From assembly GCA_944329355.1 (NCBI GenBank), contig CALVID010000001.1:28171-92170 (forward strand): a DNA stretch of 64,000 nucleotides. Direction: 5' to 3'. Source of the DNA: an uncultured Bacilli bacterium. GTDB taxonomy: Bacteria; Bacillota_I; Bacilli_A; RF39; UBA660. This document shows, piece after piece, positions 28,308 to 34,634 of the stretch (position 1 is its first letter; the number at the start of each line of letters is the position of its first letter). The notes under the pieces were generated by a model that saw only the letters and a list, made by a program, of their open reading frames with translations, searched no databases and had not been told where the DNA came from. The translations under genes and the position numbers were made by a program.

Positions 28308-28433
28308 GCATTTCTTTTTTTTGTTATTATAGTTGATTTTGCAAATAACAATACAAATTTATAATTTAATATGATTGACGTTGTTTGTTTGCTTTTTTAA
28401 CTGATAAATGGTATAAATATATTGGTGATAGTA

Positions 28434-29569
28434 TGACTGATGAGGAGATTAAAGCTTATGTACAAAAAATAGAAGAAGCATCTGTTGATGAAGTTGAAAA
28501 AATTTTATCTTCTTTGGACACCAATAATCTCGATATTAAAATTAGTAGAATTTGTGATGGAGTATCTGAAAATATTCGTGTTTTGAAGCAATTAAATGTG
28601 GAAAATGGTGATGATGTATTACATGATGATATATTAGAAATGTCGAAAAAATTATATGTGTGTTCTCACTATTTAGATGAGCCTACTGTTTTATCTGATG
28701 AGGTAAATAATGATAGATATAGGTTAGTGTTCGTTACAACACTAGCCGGGAAACCTTATTTTGAAATTGATTTATCAAAAGTTCCTAAAGAGGCTTATGA
28801 TGAGGTTTTGAATGTTTTAAAATATATGTTTAATTTTGGTGATCATTGGGATAGTAAAAGAGTTAAATATTATACTAACAATAATTTGCCTCAAAAAATT
28901 TTAGAGTTTAAAGGTTATCAGATTAGAATATTTACTGTATTATTAAAAAAGAAAATTTTAGGAGTGGTTGGTCTTACGGTAAAAAAAGCTGATAACCCAA
29001 AAGTGGTTAGTGAATTTTTAAAAAAACGTTTATCTGCAACTAGTCAACAAATTGATTGTATGAAAAAAGCTATGTCTGTATCTGATGATAGAAATCAATT
29101 ACTTTTAGATGGTGATCAAATTTTGAGTGATATTATGCAACTGTTAAATAAAAAAGATTCAGATGAAGTGGAATTGTTATTTCCTTCAGATGATGAATTG
29201 TTGTCTTTAACGCCTGATGAAGTGCTAGAGAATAAAGATGACGTAAATTTAGATCATGATAGTAAGAAGGTGTCTAAGCAAAAACATATTGAATTACCTG
29301 AAACAGCTGTTAAAATTAAAAGAAGAGGTAGAGGTTTGGGTAAAAAAACTATTGCTAGAAATGAGATTAATGCTTCACTGAAAGGTTTAAGTTTAGAAGA
29401 ATTAATGCAAGTTCAAAATTTTGTTACTAGATTAAAAATGGATAAAGGACTTAATGATACGATCGGAAATATATATGAAGGTTTTTTAAATATGTCAAAC
29501 GAAGAAATTAATAGATTTGAAAATAGTATTAAGAATTTTAAACATGATGATATTGGGAGAAGCAAATAA
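28434..29569 (+). CDS. hypothetical protein with a central HigB/Gp49-like (RelE-fold) segment
   Basis: The segment ...ILEFKGYQIRIFTVLLKKKILGVVGLTVKKADNPKVVSEFLKKRL resembles the Gp49/HigB toxin family core (yELR..yRi.y...ivvLlhgf.KKtqktp...krl). The rest has no recognisable domain. Likely ATG at 28434, with a candidate -10 TATAAA at 28414-28419. Confidence 0.35.
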
Positions 29570-29576
29570 AAAATTG

Positions 29577-30083
29577 TTATCTTTTTGATAGCAATTTTAT
29601 TTTTTGATCTACTTCTTTAGCCCATTGTACTTGATTTTTATGATGTGTTTGATGGTATTGTTTCATTAATTTTTCGTTTTTTAAGTGTTCATATATTTCA
29701 TATGGAATGTATGGTTCAATATCATCTTCCCATATAATATATAACATTTCTAAAAAATTACTATTGTATTTTTCGTCAGTTGGCAATAAGTTGATGTAAC
29801 TAATATCAGTTAAAATATTATGTAATATATTTTCTTCATCTAATAGAGATATATTAGGTTTGTTAATTTGTTTTATATGTTGATTTTTAAAAACAATTTC
29901 TCTATGTTTTAAACTATTGTATGTTTCTTTTGAAATATATGGTTTAATTTTATCATTTAAAATAATATAAAATGTTTCTATGAAATCAATATCTGTTTTT
30001 AAATTTTGTGGTAAAGATTTGATGATTTGTGGATTGTTAATAATGGCTTTAAAAAGCTCTGCTGAATTTTGATAATCGTTCAT
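29577..30083 (-). CDS. hypothetical protein with an internal ~60-aa duplication
   Basis: Two related halves (..FIETFYIILNDKIKPYISKETYNSLKH.. and ..FLEMLYIIWEDDIEPYIPYEIYEHLKN..). No TM helix or signal peptide. Confidence 0.4.
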   Translation of the reverse strand: MNDYQNSAELFKAIINNPQIIKSLPQNLKTDIDFIETFYIILNDKIKPYISKETYNSLKHREIVFKNQHIKQINKPNISLLDEENILHNILTDISYINLLPTDEKYNSNFLEMLYIIWEDDIEPYIPYEIYEHLKNEKLMKQYHQTHHKNQVQWAKEVDQKIKLLSKR

Positions 30084-30253
30084 AATATTTTCCTCTTTCT
30101 TTAATATTATATTAAAATATTTTTTTTGTTATGTCAAAAATAATAGTTAAAATTGTAAATAACAGTTTACATATTTTTTATTATTTTTAAATAAAATTCT
30201 AAAATAAATGACTTTTAATTTCAAATGTAGTATATTTAGTTTAGGTGATAGAT

Positions 30254-32440: not shown

Positions 32441-32581
32441 AATAGGTAAATACATGTCAGAGTAATAAGTAGAATCAGTTTTGATTCTGCTTTTATATAT
32501 TAGTTTTTAAAAGTATTGATTTTGTTATTTTTTCTTTACAAATGTTTAAGCCTATTATATAATTTTTTTAAGGTGATTTAC

Positions 32582-33334
32582 ATGAAGGCATTAATAACAG
32601 GAGCTTCTTCAGGAATGGGAGCTGATATGGCTAGATATTTGGTTTCTGAGGGATATGAAGTAATACTTGTAGCTAGAAGAAAGACAAGATTAGAAAAATT
32701 AGTTAAAGAATTAGGTGATAAAGCTAGTTATATTGTTAAAGATATTTCTAGTACATATAATTGTATGGAGCTTTATAACGAGGTTAAAAAAGAAAATATC
32801 GATATTTTAATCAATAATGCGGGTTTTGGGGTTTTTGGCGAATTTAGTGATACAAATTTGGATAAGGAACTTGATATGATCGATTTAAATATTAAGTCTT
32901 TGCACCTTCTTACAAAATTATTTTTAAAAGATTTTAAGAAAAAGGATAGAGGTTATATTTTGAATGTGGCTTCTTCAGCTGGATTTATGGCTGGACCTTT
33001 GATGGCTAGCTATTATGCGACTAAGAATTATGTTGTCAGTCTTAGTTTGGCTATATATGAAGAACTAAAAAAAGATGGCAGTAATGTTTCAATAAGTGTG
33101 CTTTGTCCTGGACCAGTTGATACTGAATTTAACAAAATGGCTAGAGTTCATTTTTCTATTAAAGGTGAAAATAGTATGGATGTAGCCAGGTATGGTATTA
33201 AGAAAATGTTTGACGAAAAGTTAATTATAATCCCCAGTTTGAAGATGAAGTTAGGAATAGTTTTTATCAGATTTATTCCTAGAAAATTGCTTTTAAAAAT
33301 TAGTTATAAAATTCAAAATGGTAAGAGGAGTTAA
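32582..33334 (+). CDS. short-chain dehydrogenase/reductase (SDR) family oxidoreductase
   Basis: MKALITGASSGMGADMA (TGxxxGxG) and catalytic YxxxK (YYATK). Start at ATG 32582 is preferred over the longer ORF. Confidence 0.75.
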   Translation: MKALITGASSGMGADMARYLVSEGYEVILVARRKTRLEKLVKELGDKASYIVKDISSTYNCMELYNEVKKENIDILINNAGFGVFGEFSDTNLDKELDMIDLNIKSLHLLTKLFLKDFKKKDRGYILNVASSAGFMAGPLMASYYATKNYVVSLSLAIYEELKKDGSNVSISVLCPGPVDTEFNKMARVHFSIKGENSMDVARYGIKKMFDEKLIIIPSLKMKLGIVFIRFIPRKLLLKISYKIQNGKRS

Positions 33335-33389
33335 GTCTTTAGTGATTTAACTTTTTCTTTGACGTATGATATAATTAAGGGGGATTTAT

Positions 33390-34559
33390 ATGGGTAAAAT
33401 ATTGGATTATGATGAAATGAATGAAATTTTAGATGGGCTTGATAATAAGGTTATTAAAAAAGAAAAGCCTATTGGTTATACTTATTTCGGCTATCCTATT
33501 GATCATTATGTATATGGTCATGGTAAATATCATGTTATTATTACTGGAGGAACACATAGTGCGGAACTTATTAGTAATGTTTTTGTAATTAGATTTATGG
33601 AAAAGTTGTCTAAGGGAGAGATTAAGATAGATGAGAATTATACTTTGCATTTTATTCCGATAGTGAATCCTGAAGGGACAATTATTGTAACGAGTGCGAT
33701 TAGAAGTTTGATTTCTAGAGATATTTCATTAGAAGAGGAACAGACATACTGTTTAACTTATTATAGAAATAGCTATATTGAAGGAGTGTATGCTGATAAA
33801 TATGGTGATAGAAATTATAAGTTACAACAAATGATGTTTAGAGGTGCTACTCCTTTGATTTTAGATGATAAGCATTATAGGTTAAAAGAGTATTTAATAG
33901 ATTTGTTTGATAAAAATAATTTACCTCAAGGATGTATGATTAATTGGTCTAGTAATGGTAGAGGTGTTGATTTAAATGCTAATATTGAATATAGTTCATT
34001 TATAAACAAGGTTAGTAATGGCGAAGAGATGTATGCTAAGTTACATTTAAATAATATTAGAAGAGATAAATTGGGTCCTTTGGGCTGCCCTTATTTTCAA
34101 AAAGGGAAAATTGAAAGAGAAAATGAGGCTTTATTGAAATTTTATAATGAAATAAAAAGTAAATACAATTATATAGGGTCTTTTATTTATCATAGTTGTG
34201 GTGATATAGTTTATTATTTAGGTGAGGCTAAAGAAAAAAATCCATGGATAAATTTAACTAAAGATGATGAAAGCAGAAATTTTGAAGTGGCTAAAACTTA
34301 TGCAGATAACGCGGGTTATAAATTAGATGGTTTAGAAATTTATACCACTATGGATTCAAAGTTGAAGAGTTTATTTCCAGTAACTCTTCTTATAGAACTT
34401 GGTTCTGTTAGGGCTACACCACTTTCTCAGTTTATGGATTTAGATATTGGTGGTGATGATGCTTTTAGATGTGTTTATAGTAAGATAATAAGTAACAATA
34501 TAAAAGCGATTATTAGGACATTAGAGGTAATGGTTAAAGTATATGAAAAGAAATTTTAG
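33390..34559 (+). CDS. M14 family zinc carboxypeptidase-like protein (gamma-D-glutamyl-diamino acid peptidase-like)
   Basis: GGTHSAEL matches the M14 HxxE zinc-ligand motif; size ~390 aa; no signal peptide. Confidence 0.45.
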   Translation: MGKILDYDEMNEILDGLDNKVIKKEKPIGYTYFGYPIDHYVYGHGKYHVIITGGTHSAELISNVFVIRFMEKLSKGEIKIDENYTLHFIPIVNPEGTIIVTSAIRSLISRDISLEEEQTYCLTYYRNSYIEGVYADKYGDRNYKLQQMMFRGATPLILDDKHYRLKEYLIDLFDKNNLPQGCMINWSSNGRGVDLNANIEYSSFINKVSNGEEMYAKLHLNNIRRDKLGPLGCPYFQKGKIERENEALLKFYNEIKSKYNYIGSFIYHSCGDIVYYLGEAKEKNPWINLTKDDESRNFEVAKTYADNAGYKLDGLEIYTTMDSKLKSLFPVTLLIELGSVRATPLSQFMDLDIGGDDAFRCVYSKIISNNIKAIIRTLEVMVKVYEKKF

Positions 34560-34634
34560 GATATTTTTTCAAAAAATTGAAACAATAAAATAATTTTGTT
34601 GTAAAGTGAGGTTAATTATACTATAATAATTTTC

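What the first reader, a model, noticed from the sequence alone, without database searches (positions are those of the whole stretch)
28308..34634. ~6.3 kb gene block inserted into the conserved rplQ to ecfA junction
In most Firmicutes rplQ is followed directly by ecfA1-ecfA2-ecfT-truA-rplM-rpsI. Here five unrelated genes sit between rplQ and the EcfA-like genes: a 394-aa protein with a HigB/Gp49-like toxin-fold segment, a convergent 168-aa internally duplicated protein, a 730-aa cytoplasmic LRR-like repeat protein, an SDR and an M14-like peptidase. Several are on the minus strand or transcribed divergently. The content (a toxin-like fold, a rapidly evolving repeat protein, small unknown partners) resembles defence or conflict cargo more than ribosomal-operon housekeeping.
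Basis: partly seen in the sequence, partly recalled or inferred. Interest (0 to 1): 0.7.

Follow-up and report, generated by a model that had tools for sequence, protein, structure and literature searches.

The report
Variable accessory slot after rplQ
The five genes between rplQ and the EcfA-like genes are not one inserted block: two are old residents of this gut-bacterial lineage, and three fast-changing genes of unknown function sit in a slot that holds different genes in each related species.

Summary
The five genes are real and lie at the stated coordinates. The single inserted defence block reading holds only in part. The window is a low-GC RF39 / 'Candidatus Coprosoma'-like gut bacterium.

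- **Residents.** The SDR gene follows rplQ in 47 of 79 related genomes. The M14 peptidase is resident in the closer clade.
- **Variable slot.** The rplQ-to-SDR gap ranges from 59 bp to 6.1 kb. It holds over 100 unrelated ORF clusters, mostly miscellaneous accessory genes. Here it carries two genus-restricted orphans:
  - a 378/394-aa protein with a RelE/HigB-like fold, whose dN is about 20 times that of RpoA;
  - a convergent, internally duplicated 168-aa protein.
- **Recent insertion.** In this species alone, a 2.4-kb single-gene cassette sits exactly between the 168-aa gene's promoter and the SDR promoter. Its 728-aa product has an unannotated ~430-aa N-terminal domain. The core of that domain recurs inside giant phage polyvalent proteins and is weakly PcfJ-like. 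The C-terminus is a leucine-rich-repeat solenoid encoded by 63-bp tandem repeats of variable copy number.

Composition is native. PADLOC gives no hit, and there are no mobility genes. A conflict-related role for the three unknown proteins is plausible but unproven.

The parts
27951..28307 (+). rplQ (L17), the upstream anchor and last gene of the ribosomal/rpoA operon
   Evidence: ORF. It is 75-97% identical across the related loci that retain it.
28290..28318 (+). Terminator-like hairpin plus T-run at the end of rplQ. It marks the left edge of the variable slot.
   Evidence: Consensus scan only. Thirteen related contigs end within 400 bp after rplQ.
28338..28365 (+). Promoter-like site (TTTGCA-16-TATAAT) in front of the 394-aa gene
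   Evidence: Consensus scan only.
28385..29569 (+). p394, a genus-restricted orphan (probable start 28433, 378 aa). Layout: N-terminal helical region, RelE/HigB-like domain, coiled coil, variable acidic linker, then a conserved basic C-terminal helical domain.
   Evidence: Only 182 homologues among 5.8 billion proteins, the next best about 50% identical. Alignment A1. AF2 model with mean pLDDT 61. Median dN 0.53 against 0.026 for rpoA.
28712..28999 (+). RelE/HigB (Gp49-like) fold segment of p394 (about aa 110-205). It carries the invariant EFK..Q.RI.T...KK motif.
   Evidence: The eight best Foldseek PDB hits are S. pneumoniae HigB (6af4/6af3, best E = 5e-3, TMt 0.6), YafQ and RelE. Pfam Gp49 E = 0.089 over profile positions 2-74 of 90. 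Strand/helix order.
29577..30083 (-). p168, a genus-restricted orphan made of two copies of a ~55-aa unit. It converges on p394.
   Evidence: 41 homologues in all, some truncated. Duplication test. Weak DUF4116 match at E = 0.012, below the cutoff. In the 80 loci it is found only next to p394.
30139..32534 (+). Species-specific single-gene insertion of ~2.4 kb. It lies between the p168 promoter (reverse TTGACA at 30133-30138) and the SDR -35 box (TTTACA at 32535).
   Evidence: DNA alignment with L001, L003, L005, L006 and L007, where p168 and SDR are ~115 bp apart. No target-site duplication or terminal repeats were found.
30254..32440 (+). p731 (728 aa from the ATG at 30254): a ~430-aa N-terminal domain plus an LRR solenoid
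   Evidence: Over 3227 homologues. The N-domain alone matches 1906 clusters at the 50%-identity level. No Pfam, NCBIfam, PADLOC or PHROGs family. AF2 model pLDDT 90, pTM 0.74.
30947..31249 (+). Conserved alpha/beta core of the p731 N-domain (aa ~235-335; TGWCT ... GDFYVYY ... PRIAIRM ... EIRG..QN). It is shared with phage polyvalent proteins and may be PcfJ-like.
   Evidence: 22 IMG/VR loci at 29-48% identity; those translated lie inside 1500-3200-aa proteins, and the three giant ones scanned carry LPD38 or LPD39. hhalign against a PcfJ alignment gives P = 0.008 over 74 columns, with a reversed control at 0.34. BFVD hits.
31536..32217 (+). 63-bp x 10.8 tandem repeat that encodes the 21-aa LRR units
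32467..32492 (+). Terminator-like hairpin after p731
   Evidence: Consensus scan only.
32535..32563 (+). Promoter-like site (TTTACA-17-TATAAT, 11 of 12 matches) for SDR, conserved in relatives
32582..33334 (+). SDR oxidoreductase, an ancestral resident downstream of rplQ in this lineage
   Evidence: Pfam adh_short E = 3e-44. It is the next conserved gene after rplQ in 47 of 79 loci, at 56-94% identity. dN 0.07.
33390..34559 (+). M14-like zinc carboxypeptidase (HSAE motif present). It is resident in the closer clade and lost in some relatives.
   Evidence: Pfam M14 E = 1e-9. Present in loci with RpoA at least 86% identical, but absent in L004 and L007.
34635..36163 (+). EcfA1-like and EcfA2-like ABC ATPase genes, the right anchor. 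Both diverge fast, and ecfT is missing.
   Evidence: NCBIfam ECF_ATPase scores of 103 and 160 bits against cutoffs of 315 and 330. 51-66% identity where truA is 91-97%. EcfT is present in 21 more distant loci but absent here.

Best explanation
The interval is a mosaic built in three layers. It is not a single inserted island.

**Layer 1, old residents (shown).** In this RF39/Coprosoma-like lineage an SDR oxidoreductase has long sat between rplQ and the ECF ATPase genes. In the closer clade an M14 peptidase sits there too.

**Layer 2, variable slot (shown).** The stretch between the rplQ terminator and the SDR promoter turns over, and each species carries different cargo there. In this genus the cargo is two orphan genes.
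- p394 contains a RelE/HigB-type fold flanked by helical domains. It is the fastest-evolving gene in the neighbourhood.
- p168 is a small, internally duplicated protein that converges on p394.

**Layer 3, recent insertion (shown).** In this species alone, a self-contained cassette (promoter, p731, terminator) was dropped precisely between the divergent p168 and SDR promoters. No mobility gene is present and the composition is native. This fits homologous or illegitimate recombination from a related genome, or a move from another chromosomal site.

**How the parts probably work (inferred).**
- p394 most likely binds the ribosome or mRNA through its RelE-like module, which keeps invariant basic residues K176, R181, K200, K201 and R215. 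Its own N- and C-terminal extensions would control it. It could be a self-contained stress or abortive-infection toxin, or a ribosome-associated regulator.
- p731 uses its LRR solenoid as a binding surface. The 63-bp tandem repeats give or lose units easily, which resets the length of that surface.
- The N-terminal domain of p731 is the effector or signalling part. It carries invariant W262-C263, R296, E309, G312, D386 and R388. Its core also occurs in injected phage polyvalent proteins and is weakly PcfJ-like.
- That points to a role in phage/plasmid-host conflict. Which side it acts for is unknown.
For: **Synteny**
- tblastn of 14 window proteins was run on 80 related loci.
- SDR is the next anchor after rplQ in 47 of 79 loci, with a gap of 59-6098 bp.
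- p394 is in 13 of the 80 loci, including the eight genus-level relatives (L001-L008). p168 is in seven of those eight, with a fragment in L004.
- p731 is in none of the 80 loci.

**Slot contents**
- 196 gap ORFs fall into about 120 clusters.
- Sampled Pfam hits are ordinary accessory genes.
- 13 contigs break within 400 bp after rplQ.

**Insertion point**
- One search places it to within a few bases. L002 carries a different 2.5-kb insertion at the same junction.
- The same arrangement, including p731, recurs in an independent ENA contig.

**Evolutionary rates**
- dN is 0.53 for p394, 0.35 for p168, 0.07 for SDR and 0.026 for rpoA.
- dN/dS for p394 is about 0.5, and every ORF is intact.

**p394 fold:**

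**p731**
- High-confidence model and LRR fold.
- Repeat array and unit-number variation.
- Family size.
- Four different chromosomal sites without conserved partner genes.
- Core domain inside phage polyvalent proteins.
- PcfJ comparison.

**No sign of a mobile element:** native composition; no tRNA, Rfam hit or flanking repeats.
Against: **The functional part is inference.**
- No defence or anti-defence family matches any of the three proteins.
- The p394 model is only moderately confident (pLDDT 61, about 60-75 in the RelE-like part).
- Foldseek E-values for p394 are marginal (5e-3 at best). Sequence profiles find no RelE/HigB in the PDB.
- No antitoxin partner is evident.
- The PcfJ link is weak: hhalign P = 0.008 with probability below 5%, no Pfam hit, and BFVD E = 0.089.
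- p731-family genes sit singly among housekeeping genes, with no defence or mobile neighbours except one IS110.

**Fast evolution may not mean conflict.**
- Rapid change in p394 and p168 could reflect relaxed constraint rather than conflict. The neighbouring EcfA-like genes also evolve fast and ecfT is gone.

**Limits of the synteny sample.**
- It uses one genome per GTDB species, so strain-level presence or absence of p731 was not sampled.
Confidence: 0.7

Rival explanations
1. One reading: all five genes form one horizontally acquired defence or conflict island, inserted into the rplQ-ecfA junction.
For: - The junction is interrupted.
- A RelE/HigB-like fold is present.
- There is a repeat-variable LRR protein related to a phage polyvalent-protein module.
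- p394, p168 and p731 are absent from most relatives.
Against: - SDR is at this position in 47 of 79 related loci, and M14 across the closer clade.
- The three variable genes have three different ages. p394 reaches beyond the genus (also in L010, L018, L019 and L023). p168 is limited to the genus-level relatives. p731 is species-level.
- Composition is native.
- There is no PADLOC hit.
- There are no mobility genes, tRNA or boundary repeats.
- The same slot in other species holds non-defence genes.
Confidence: 0.05
2. The region is a zone of relaxed selection with no conflict role. On this view p394 and p168 are lineage-specific orphans that are drifting or decaying. The EcfA-like genes are decaying after the loss of ecfT. 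p731 is a scaffold or adaptor protein with a cellular partner, and it happens to have landed here.
For: - Average dN/dS is below 1 but high for p394 (0.5), p168 (0.29), ecfA1 (0.39) and ecfA2 (0.29).
- Truncated p168 variants exist, and L004 keeps only a fragment.
- M14 is lost in L004 and L007, and ecfT is lost.
- The p731 family is stably resident between DUF308 and rmuC in one clade, with no defence neighbours.
- No defence-family matches were found.
Against: - p394 stays an intact ORF of similar length in all 13 loci and in 182 database entries, with about 50 invariant positions.
- The p731 N-domain has many invariant polar residues and is kept in about 1900 clusters at the 50%-identity level.
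- The same core sits inside injected phage polyvalent proteins.
- Repeat-number polymorphism is typical of proteins under diversifying pressure.
Confidence: 0.3
3. p394 and p168 form a two-gene toxin-antitoxin or toxin-immunity pair, with p168 neutralising the RelE-like p394.
For: - In the 80 loci, p168 is found only next to p394, and the two are 7 bp apart.
- Both are restricted to the same narrow clade and both evolve fast.
Against: - They are convergent, so they are not co-transcribed.
- p394 occurs without p168 in L010, L018, L019 and L023, and with only a fragment in L004.
- p168 has no DNA-binding or known antitoxin domain.
Confidence: 0.12

Closest known systems
RelE/ParE-superfamily toxins of the HigB / Gp49 type (Pfam PF05973; S. 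pneumoniae HigB, PDB 6AF3/6AF4)
   Same: The p394 segment at about residues 110-205 has strand-helix-four-strand order. It carries an E-F-K ... R-I ... K-K motif with the spacing I recall for Gp49-type HigB toxins (from memory, not checked against the profile). The eight best Foldseek PDB hits are HigB, YafQ and RelE.
   Different: - It is embedded in a 378-aa protein, with a ~95-aa helical N-domain, a coiled coil, an acidic variable linker and a basic C-terminal helical domain.
- No adjacent HTH antitoxin gene is present.
- The sequence match is below the threshold (13.3 bits against a cutoff of 23.9).
- The family is confined to one genus.
PcfJ domain proteins of conjugative plasmids and phages (Pfam PF14284; pCF10 PcfJ)
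   Same: The p731 core aligns in one register with the PcfJ C-terminal domain:
- xCx (TGWCT against L.HCV);
- G...I.F (GDFYVYY);
- a hydrophobic strand (PRIAIRM against sl.T.E);
- v.Q.RG..N (I.EIRG..QN).

hhalign gives P = 0.008 over 74 columns. Two proteins named PcfJ-like appear among the non-LRR BFVD hits.
   Different: - No Pfam hit at any threshold tried.
- The His before the Cys is replaced by Trp.
- p731 is chromosomal, with a large extra helical N-terminal region and an LRR tail.
- The function of PcfJ is itself unknown.
Phage-type polyvalent proteins (Iyer, Burroughs, Anand, de Souza, Aravind 2017, PMC5512222)
   Same: The TGWCT/GDFYVYY core is 29-48% identical to segments of IMG/VR viral proteins; those translated are 1500-3200 aa. 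The three giant ones scanned carry LPD38 or LPD39, and by eye also an HExxH metallopeptidase-like motif (not tested). In L102 and L104 the core is again followed by ~21-aa LRR-like repeats. The best BFVD match aligns 628 columns to a segment of a giant Caudovirales protein.
   Different: - p731 is a stand-alone 728-aa chromosomal protein, not one module of a virion-delivered polyprotein.
- It has no LPD, peptidase or nuclease domains.
- The core is not among the Pfam LPD families.
Bacterial LRR proteins (internalins, YopM/IpaH/SlrP LRRs, Roco LRR) and FNIP/IRREKO-type short LRRs
   Different: - No signal peptide, sortase motif, NEL, kinase or NTPase partner domain.
- The repeats are near-identical at the DNA level (80% matches between units). 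This implies recent expansion and contraction.
Canonical Firmicute rplQ-ecfA-ecfA'-ecfT-truA-rplM-rpsI arrangement (for example in Bacillus subtilis; established knowledge)
   Same: The order rpoA, rplQ ... ecfA1-like, ecfA2-like, truA, rplM, rpsI is kept.
   Different: - SDR, with or without M14, and a variable slot are intercalated across the lineage.
- ecfT is missing in this genus.
- The EcfA-like genes are highly diverged.

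Membership tests
Known anti-phage defence systems (PADLOC-DB v2) | At least one protein matches a defence-system HMM | tested here: not met
   None of the five proteins matches any family at E <= 0.1.
Genomic island / integrated mobile element | Integrase, transposase or recombinase gene; insertion at a tRNA or att site; flanking direct repeats | tested here: not met
   No such Pfam domains. There is no tRNA within 13 kb. There are no boundary repeats. The insertion of p731 shows no target duplication.
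Genomic island / integrated mobile element | Composition or codon usage departs from the host genome | tested here: not met
   GC and codon-usage distance lie within about 2 sd of the 70 window genes for all five genes. GC3 does too for four; the SDR ORF as called from 32516 is just over 2 sd (0.231 against 0.172 +/- 0.029).
Genomic island / integrated mobile element | Present or absent as a unit between related genomes | tested here: not met
   The genes have different distributions. SDR is lineage-wide, M14 clade-wide, p394 and p168 limited to this genus and its closest relatives, and p731 species-level.
HigB / Gp49-type RelE-superfamily toxin (PF05973) | Sequence match to the family profile above the gathering score | tested here: not met
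   The best score is 13.3 bits (E = 0.089) against a cutoff of 23.9, and only for the window's own sequence. PDB profile searches find no RelE/HigB.
HigB / Gp49-type RelE-superfamily toxin (PF05973) | RelE fold: an antiparallel sheet packed against helices | tested here: inconclusive
   The eight best Foldseek hits are HigB, YafQ and RelE, with probability 1.00 and TMt 0.53-0.68. However, E is 5e-3 or worse and the model has a mean pLDDT of 61.
HigB / Gp49-type RelE-superfamily toxin (PF05973) | Cognate antitoxin gene (HigA-type HTH) adjacent and co-transcribed | tested here: not met
   No HTH protein is adjacent. The neighbour p168 is convergent and has no DNA-binding domain.
HigB / Gp49-type RelE-superfamily toxin (PF05973) | Ribosome-dependent mRNA cleavage | not testable with these tools
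   This needs biochemistry.
PcfJ domain family (PF14284) | Match to the Pfam profile | tested here: not met
   No hit for p731, for ten family representatives, or for six isolated core segments, even at E <= 10.
PcfJ domain family (PF14284) | Profile-profile or structural similarity over the conserved C..G..I.F..T.E..Q.RG..N core | tested here: inconclusive
   hhalign gives P = 0.008 over 74 columns in the expected register, with a reversed control at P = 0.34. The BFVD PcfJ-like hits have E = 0.089 and 1.2.
Leucine-rich repeat proteins | Tandem 20-30-aa units with an LxxLxLxx(N/C/T)xL-type core that form a curved solenoid | tested here: met
Phage/plasmid polyvalent proteins | Giant multi-domain polypeptide (2-15 domains) with LPD domains and a processing peptidase, encoded on a phage or conjugative element | tested here: not met
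   p731 has two modules only and is chromosomal, with no LPD hits. It shares one module with such proteins.
ECF transporter energising module (EcfA1-EcfA2-EcfT), the flank | Both ATPases score above the equivalog cutoff and EcfT is encoded alongside | tested here: not met
   The scores are 103 of 315 bits and 160 of 330 bits. There is no EcfT between ecfA2 and truA, nor anywhere in the window.

The most novel reading that the evidence does not exclude
The p731 family would be a previously undescribed class of host-encoded sensor or decoy, captured from a phage polyvalent-protein module. The family is a ~430-aa N-domain with a PcfJ-like core plus a repeat-variable LRR. It forms about 1900 clusters at 50% identity and has no Pfam entry.

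On this reading, the LRR is retuned by gain and loss of 63-bp units and recognises an invader protein. The conserved Cys/Arg/Glu/Asp-bearing core acts as the effector.

Alongside it, p394 would be a single-chain RelE-fold abortive-infection toxin, regulated within the same molecule.
Probability: 0.15. Interest if true: 0.75.

Novelty: new variant of a known kind. Interest (0 to 1): 0.4.

Why it matters
**Annotation.** The apparent island is really a lineage-resident SDR (plus M14) next to a small turnover slot at the end of the ribosomal operon. The lesson is that departure from the Bacillus gene order is not in itself evidence of insertion.

**Biology.** Two leads come out of it.
- A large, wholly unannotated protein family is common in gut Firmicutes. 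It couples a domain shared with injected phage polyvalent proteins to an LRR array that changes length in whole units. That would make the unknown PcfJ-like domain experimentally approachable in a simple stand-alone protein.
- A genus-restricted, very fast-evolving RelE-fold fusion protein is encoded directly after the rplQ terminator.

Neither lead is established as defence. Both are cheap to test.

Tried and rejected
- **Family libraries.** Pfam, NCBIfam, PADLOC and PHROGs on the three unknown proteins gave nothing significant.
- **Spurious precomputed labels.** The Pfam labels on homologues (MoeA_C, HNH_5, Glutaredoxin2_C, and the JGI name 'phage protein U') fall on the repeats and were disregarded.
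- **PDB sequence searches.** Single sequences and profiles gave only keratin coiled-coil noise for p394 and weak internalin hits for p731.
- **Local iterative HMM search of p394.** Run against all ORFs in the variable gap, it found no hidden relatives beyond 13 loci. The other slot genes are therefore truly unrelated.
- **GenBank phages and PLSDB plasmids.** tblastn of the p731 N-domain found no match.
- **Single-sequence hhalign to pCF10 PcfJ.** It gave only a spurious 14-column match. A family alignment was needed.
- **Fold of the N-domain.**
  - The afdb50 library was unavailable.
- **Paper searches.**
  - A search for 'PcfJ' returned only C. elegans pCFJ plasmids.
  - 'PcfJ-like / PcfJ domain' found no functional study.
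- **Non-coding features.** Rfam, tRNA and repeat scans of the block were negative.
- **Origin of p731.** I looked for the secG-rlmN site, where the 82%-identical homologue P0002 lives. It is not in the window, so a move within the genome could not be tested.

Full report
**What the window is.** The 64-kb window has about 28% GC and reads with the standard bacterial code. RpoA is 96-98% identical to MAGs labelled uncultured Bacilli or 'Candidatus Coprosoma sp.'. It is 78-90% identical to many RF39-type 'uncultured Tenericutes/Bacilli' gut MAGs. The gene order here is secY-adk-map-infA-(rpmJ)-rpsM-rpsK-rpoA-rplQ, then the five genes of the finding, then two EcfA-like ABC ATPases, truA, rplM and rpsI.

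**Observation check.**
- Pfam confirms the SDR (adh_short, E = 3e-44) and the M14-like peptidase (E = 1e-9).
- The 168-aa protein is an internal duplication. Its two halves align with a score of 91, against 30.6 +/- 6 for shuffles.
- The 731-aa protein carries a 63-bp x 10.8 tandem array.
- Only the 168-aa gene is on the minus strand.
- The likely true starts are the ATG at 28433 for the first gene (378 aa) and the ATG at 30254 for the LRR protein (728 aa). Each sits behind a GGTGAT ribosome-binding site.

**The block is not a unit.**
- I fetched the rpoA neighbourhood from 80 species-representative genomes and located 14 window proteins in each by tblastn.
- SDR is the next conserved gene after rplQ in 47 of 79 loci, down to 78% RpoA identity.
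- M14 follows SDR in the clade with at least 86% RpoA identity, but is missing in L004 and L007.
- The 394-aa gene is in 13 of the 80 loci: the eight genus-level relatives (RpoA 92-98%) plus L010, L018, L019 and L023. The 168-aa gene is in seven of those eight, with a fragment in L004.
- The 731-aa gene is in none of the 80 loci. In L001, L003 and L005-L007, the 168-aa gene and SDR are separated by only ~115 bp.
- A DNA alignment places the insertion between the 168-aa gene's -35 box (TTGACA on the minus strand, ending at 30138) and the SDR -35 box (TTTACA at 32535). That makes it a 2.4-kb cassette with its own promoter-like site, ribosome-binding site and terminator-like hairpin.
- The same arrangement, including p731, recurs in an independent ENA contig.

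**A turnover slot, not a defence island.**
- The rplQ-to-SDR distance ranges from 59 bp to 6.1 kb.
- The 196 ORFs of at least 80 aa in these gaps fall into about 120 unrelated clusters. An iterative HMM search shows that the 394-aa family is not hiding among them.
- Sampled contents are a LytTR response regulator with a GHKL kinase, a DUF2207 membrane protein, a CAP-domain protein, DUF6273, a TPR protein and several unknowns.
- L002 carries a different two-gene insertion at the very junction where p731 sits here.
- Thirteen contigs end within 400 bp after rplQ, as expected where strains differ.
- A terminator-like hairpin closes rplQ (28290-28318) and a promoter-like site follows it.
- PADLOC gives no hit for any of the five proteins.
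- There is no integrase or transposase gene, no tRNA, no Rfam hit and no boundary repeat.
- GC, GC3 and codon usage of the five genes lie within the spread of the other window genes.

**The 394-aa protein.**
- Only 182 relatives exist among 5.8 billion proteins, and apart from near-identical copies the closest are about 50% identical.
- Among eight genus members whose RpoA proteins are 91-99% identical, the p394 orthologues are 26-63% identical.
- Its median dN is 0.53, against 0.026 for rpoA and 0.07 for SDR. dN/dS is about 0.5, though dS is near saturation, so this is rough.
- It is nevertheless always intact, with about 50 invariant positions.
- The alignment shows five parts:
  - a helical N-terminal part;
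  - a strand-helix-four-strand domain with an invariant EFK..Q.RI.T...KK pattern;
  - a coiled coil;
  - a hypervariable acidic linker;
  - a conserved basic stretch (KKVKRRTRGLGKKTIARNEI) followed by four helices.
- The AF2 model is of moderate quality (pLDDT 61). Even so, its eight best Foldseek PDB hits are all RelE-superfamily toxins: S. pneumoniae HigB, V. cholerae YafQ and T. thermophilus RelE (best E = 5e-3, TMt 0.53-0.68). M. tuberculosis RelE2 follows at rank 9.
- Pfam Gp49 matches the isolated domain at E = 0.089.
- PDB profile searches find nothing.
Family membership is not established. No antitoxin-type neighbour exists.

**The 168-aa protein.**
- It has 41 relatives in all, some of them truncated.
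- In the 80 loci it occurs only next to the 394-aa gene. The reverse does not hold: the 394-aa gene occurs without it.
- It has a weak DUF4116-like match below threshold.
- Its function is unknown.

**The 731-aa protein.**
- This is the most informative part. The family is large: over 3227 hits for the full length.
- The first 440 residues alone match 1906 clusters at the 50%-identity level, 1035 of them at E <= 1e-30.
- Neither the query nor ten representatives match any Pfam, NCBIfam or PHROGs family in that domain.
- The AF2 model is confident (pLDDT 90, pTM 0.74).
- Homologue lengths step by 21 aa. One member of the same 90% cluster differs only by a clean loss of two units. The array therefore gains and loses whole repeats.
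- Homologues sit as single genes at four or more unrelated chromosomal sites, with no conserved partner:
  - here;
  - between secG and rlmN;
  - between DUF308 and rmuC;
  - between an aminotransferase gene and a dCMP deaminase gene.
- A scan of IMG/VR found 22 viral loci. The conserved core (TGWCT ... GDFYVYY ... PRIAIRM ... EIRG..QN, residues ~235-335) recurs at 29-48% identity; in the loci translated it lies inside proteins of 1500-3200 aa.
- The three giant proteins scanned carry LPD38 or LPD39. These are hallmarks of phage-type polyvalent proteins, which are delivered with the DNA to fight host defences (PMC5512222).
- In two of the viral loci the core is again followed by ~21-aa LRR-like repeats.
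- The best BFVD structural match (E = 2e-6, 628 columns) is a segment of a giant Caudovirales protein. Two proteins named PcfJ-like appear weakly.
- I tested a lead from memory, that the core resembles the PcfJ domain.
  - I built an 11-sequence PcfJ-domain alignment from pCF10 and ten phages.
  - I compared profiles. The expected register came out over 74 columns, with P = 0.008 against 0.34 for a reversed control.
  - This is suggestive but not conclusive. Pfam itself gives no PcfJ hit.

**Most likely mechanism.**
- Shown:
  - the mosaic history;
  - the hotspot;
  - the precise insertion point;
  - the LRR fold and the unit-number variation;
  - the sharing of the N-domain core with phage polyvalent proteins;
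  - the exceptional rate of change of p394.
- Inferred:
  - p394 is a RelE-type ribosome or mRNA-directed module held in check by its own flanking domains.
  - p731 binds a target through a length-variable LRR and acts through a PcfJ-like core. That core bears invariant Trp-Cys, Arg, Glu, Gly, Asp and Arg residues.
  - Both act in phage/plasmid-host conflict.
- The main rival is that this is simply a zone of relaxed constraint. The adjacent EcfA-like genes also evolve fast, ecfT is lost, and M14 is dispensable.

**Novelty and score.**
- The island as described is largely explained away.
- What remains is a small flexible slot, which is a known kind of thing, that carries two uncharacterised families.
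- The stand-alone N-domain-plus-LRR architecture is, as far as these tools show, undescribed. It lies near known themes: PcfJ, polyvalent proteins and LRR sensors.
- I rate it a new variant of a known kind, with an interest score of 0.4.

Noticed in passing
window 34635-36214, compared with L010, L013, L015, L020 and others: ecfT is missing. In 21 more distant relatives a 237-256-aa EcfT ORF lies between ecfA2 and truA. Here and in L001-L009 the gap is too short to hold one (52 bp here), and tblastn finds no EcfT anywhere in the 64-kb window. The two EcfA-like genes score far below the NCBIfam cutoffs and evolve fast (dN 0.31-0.37). By eye, the first one lacks the LSGGQ signature and the catalytic Glu after Walker B (LVLDNFF).
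   Followed up: partly
L012, L024-L026, L033, L038, L039, L046, L052, L053, L059, L071, L074 (contig ends): Thirteen of 79 related MAG contigs end within 400 bp downstream of rplQ. This suggests strain heterogeneity or assembly breaks exactly at the variable slot.
   Followed up: partly
L002:13049-15625 (OZ007038, closed MAG): A different 2.5-kb insertion sits at the same junction between the 168-aa gene and SDR that holds p731 in the window. It has a 428-aa protein with no Pfam hit and a 293-aa TPR protein.
   Followed up: partly
L004 and L007 (SDR to ecfA1 interval): The M14-like peptidase is absent in two genomes of the same genus (RpoA 96-97% identical). The gene is therefore dispensable, even though it is conserved in the wider clade.
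   Followed up: no
L102:23-6682 and L104:16-7359 (IMG/VR viral contigs): Giant phage proteins (2220 and 2448 aa) carry the TGWCT/GDFYVYY core, immediately followed by about 25 tandem ~21-aa 'DMSFPVLKTAGDI..NSG' repeats. L102, the one scanned, also has an LPD39 domain. By eye both carry an HExxH peptidase-like motif (not tested). This is the same core-plus-repeat module as p731, embedded in a polyvalent protein.
   Followed up: partly
L084:5782-7818 (IMG/VR_UViG_3300033402_000781): A 679-aa protein on a 39-kb viral contig matches p731 residues 73-396 at 41% identity but has a non-LRR C-terminus. Its neighbours were not examined.
   Followed up: no
L106:35873-37983 (pCF10, NC_006827): In pCF10, the PcfJ-domain gene overlaps by 10 bp, on the same strand, a gene annotated as 'Cas9 inhibitor AcrIIA9 family protein'. 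It also lies a few genes from an ArdC-like protein gene. This is an anti-defence neighbourhood according to the record's annotation.
   Followed up: no
P0434 against P0001 (same 90% cluster as the window's p731): A variant is identical in both flanks but lacks exactly two 21-aa LRR units (42 aa). This is either real repeat-number polymorphism or a short-read assembly collapse.
   Followed up: partly
P0261 (881 aa, p731-family representative): One family member ends in a hydrophobic stretch (…IIILSMLTTLISIGLIVLGVFFNR) that looks like a C-terminal membrane anchor. Not all family members need be soluble cytoplasmic proteins.
   Followed up: no
L083:6539-7714: An IS110-family transposase lies directly upstream of one p731 homologue (P0090). 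It is absent from the otherwise syntenic loci L119 and L121.
   Followed up: no
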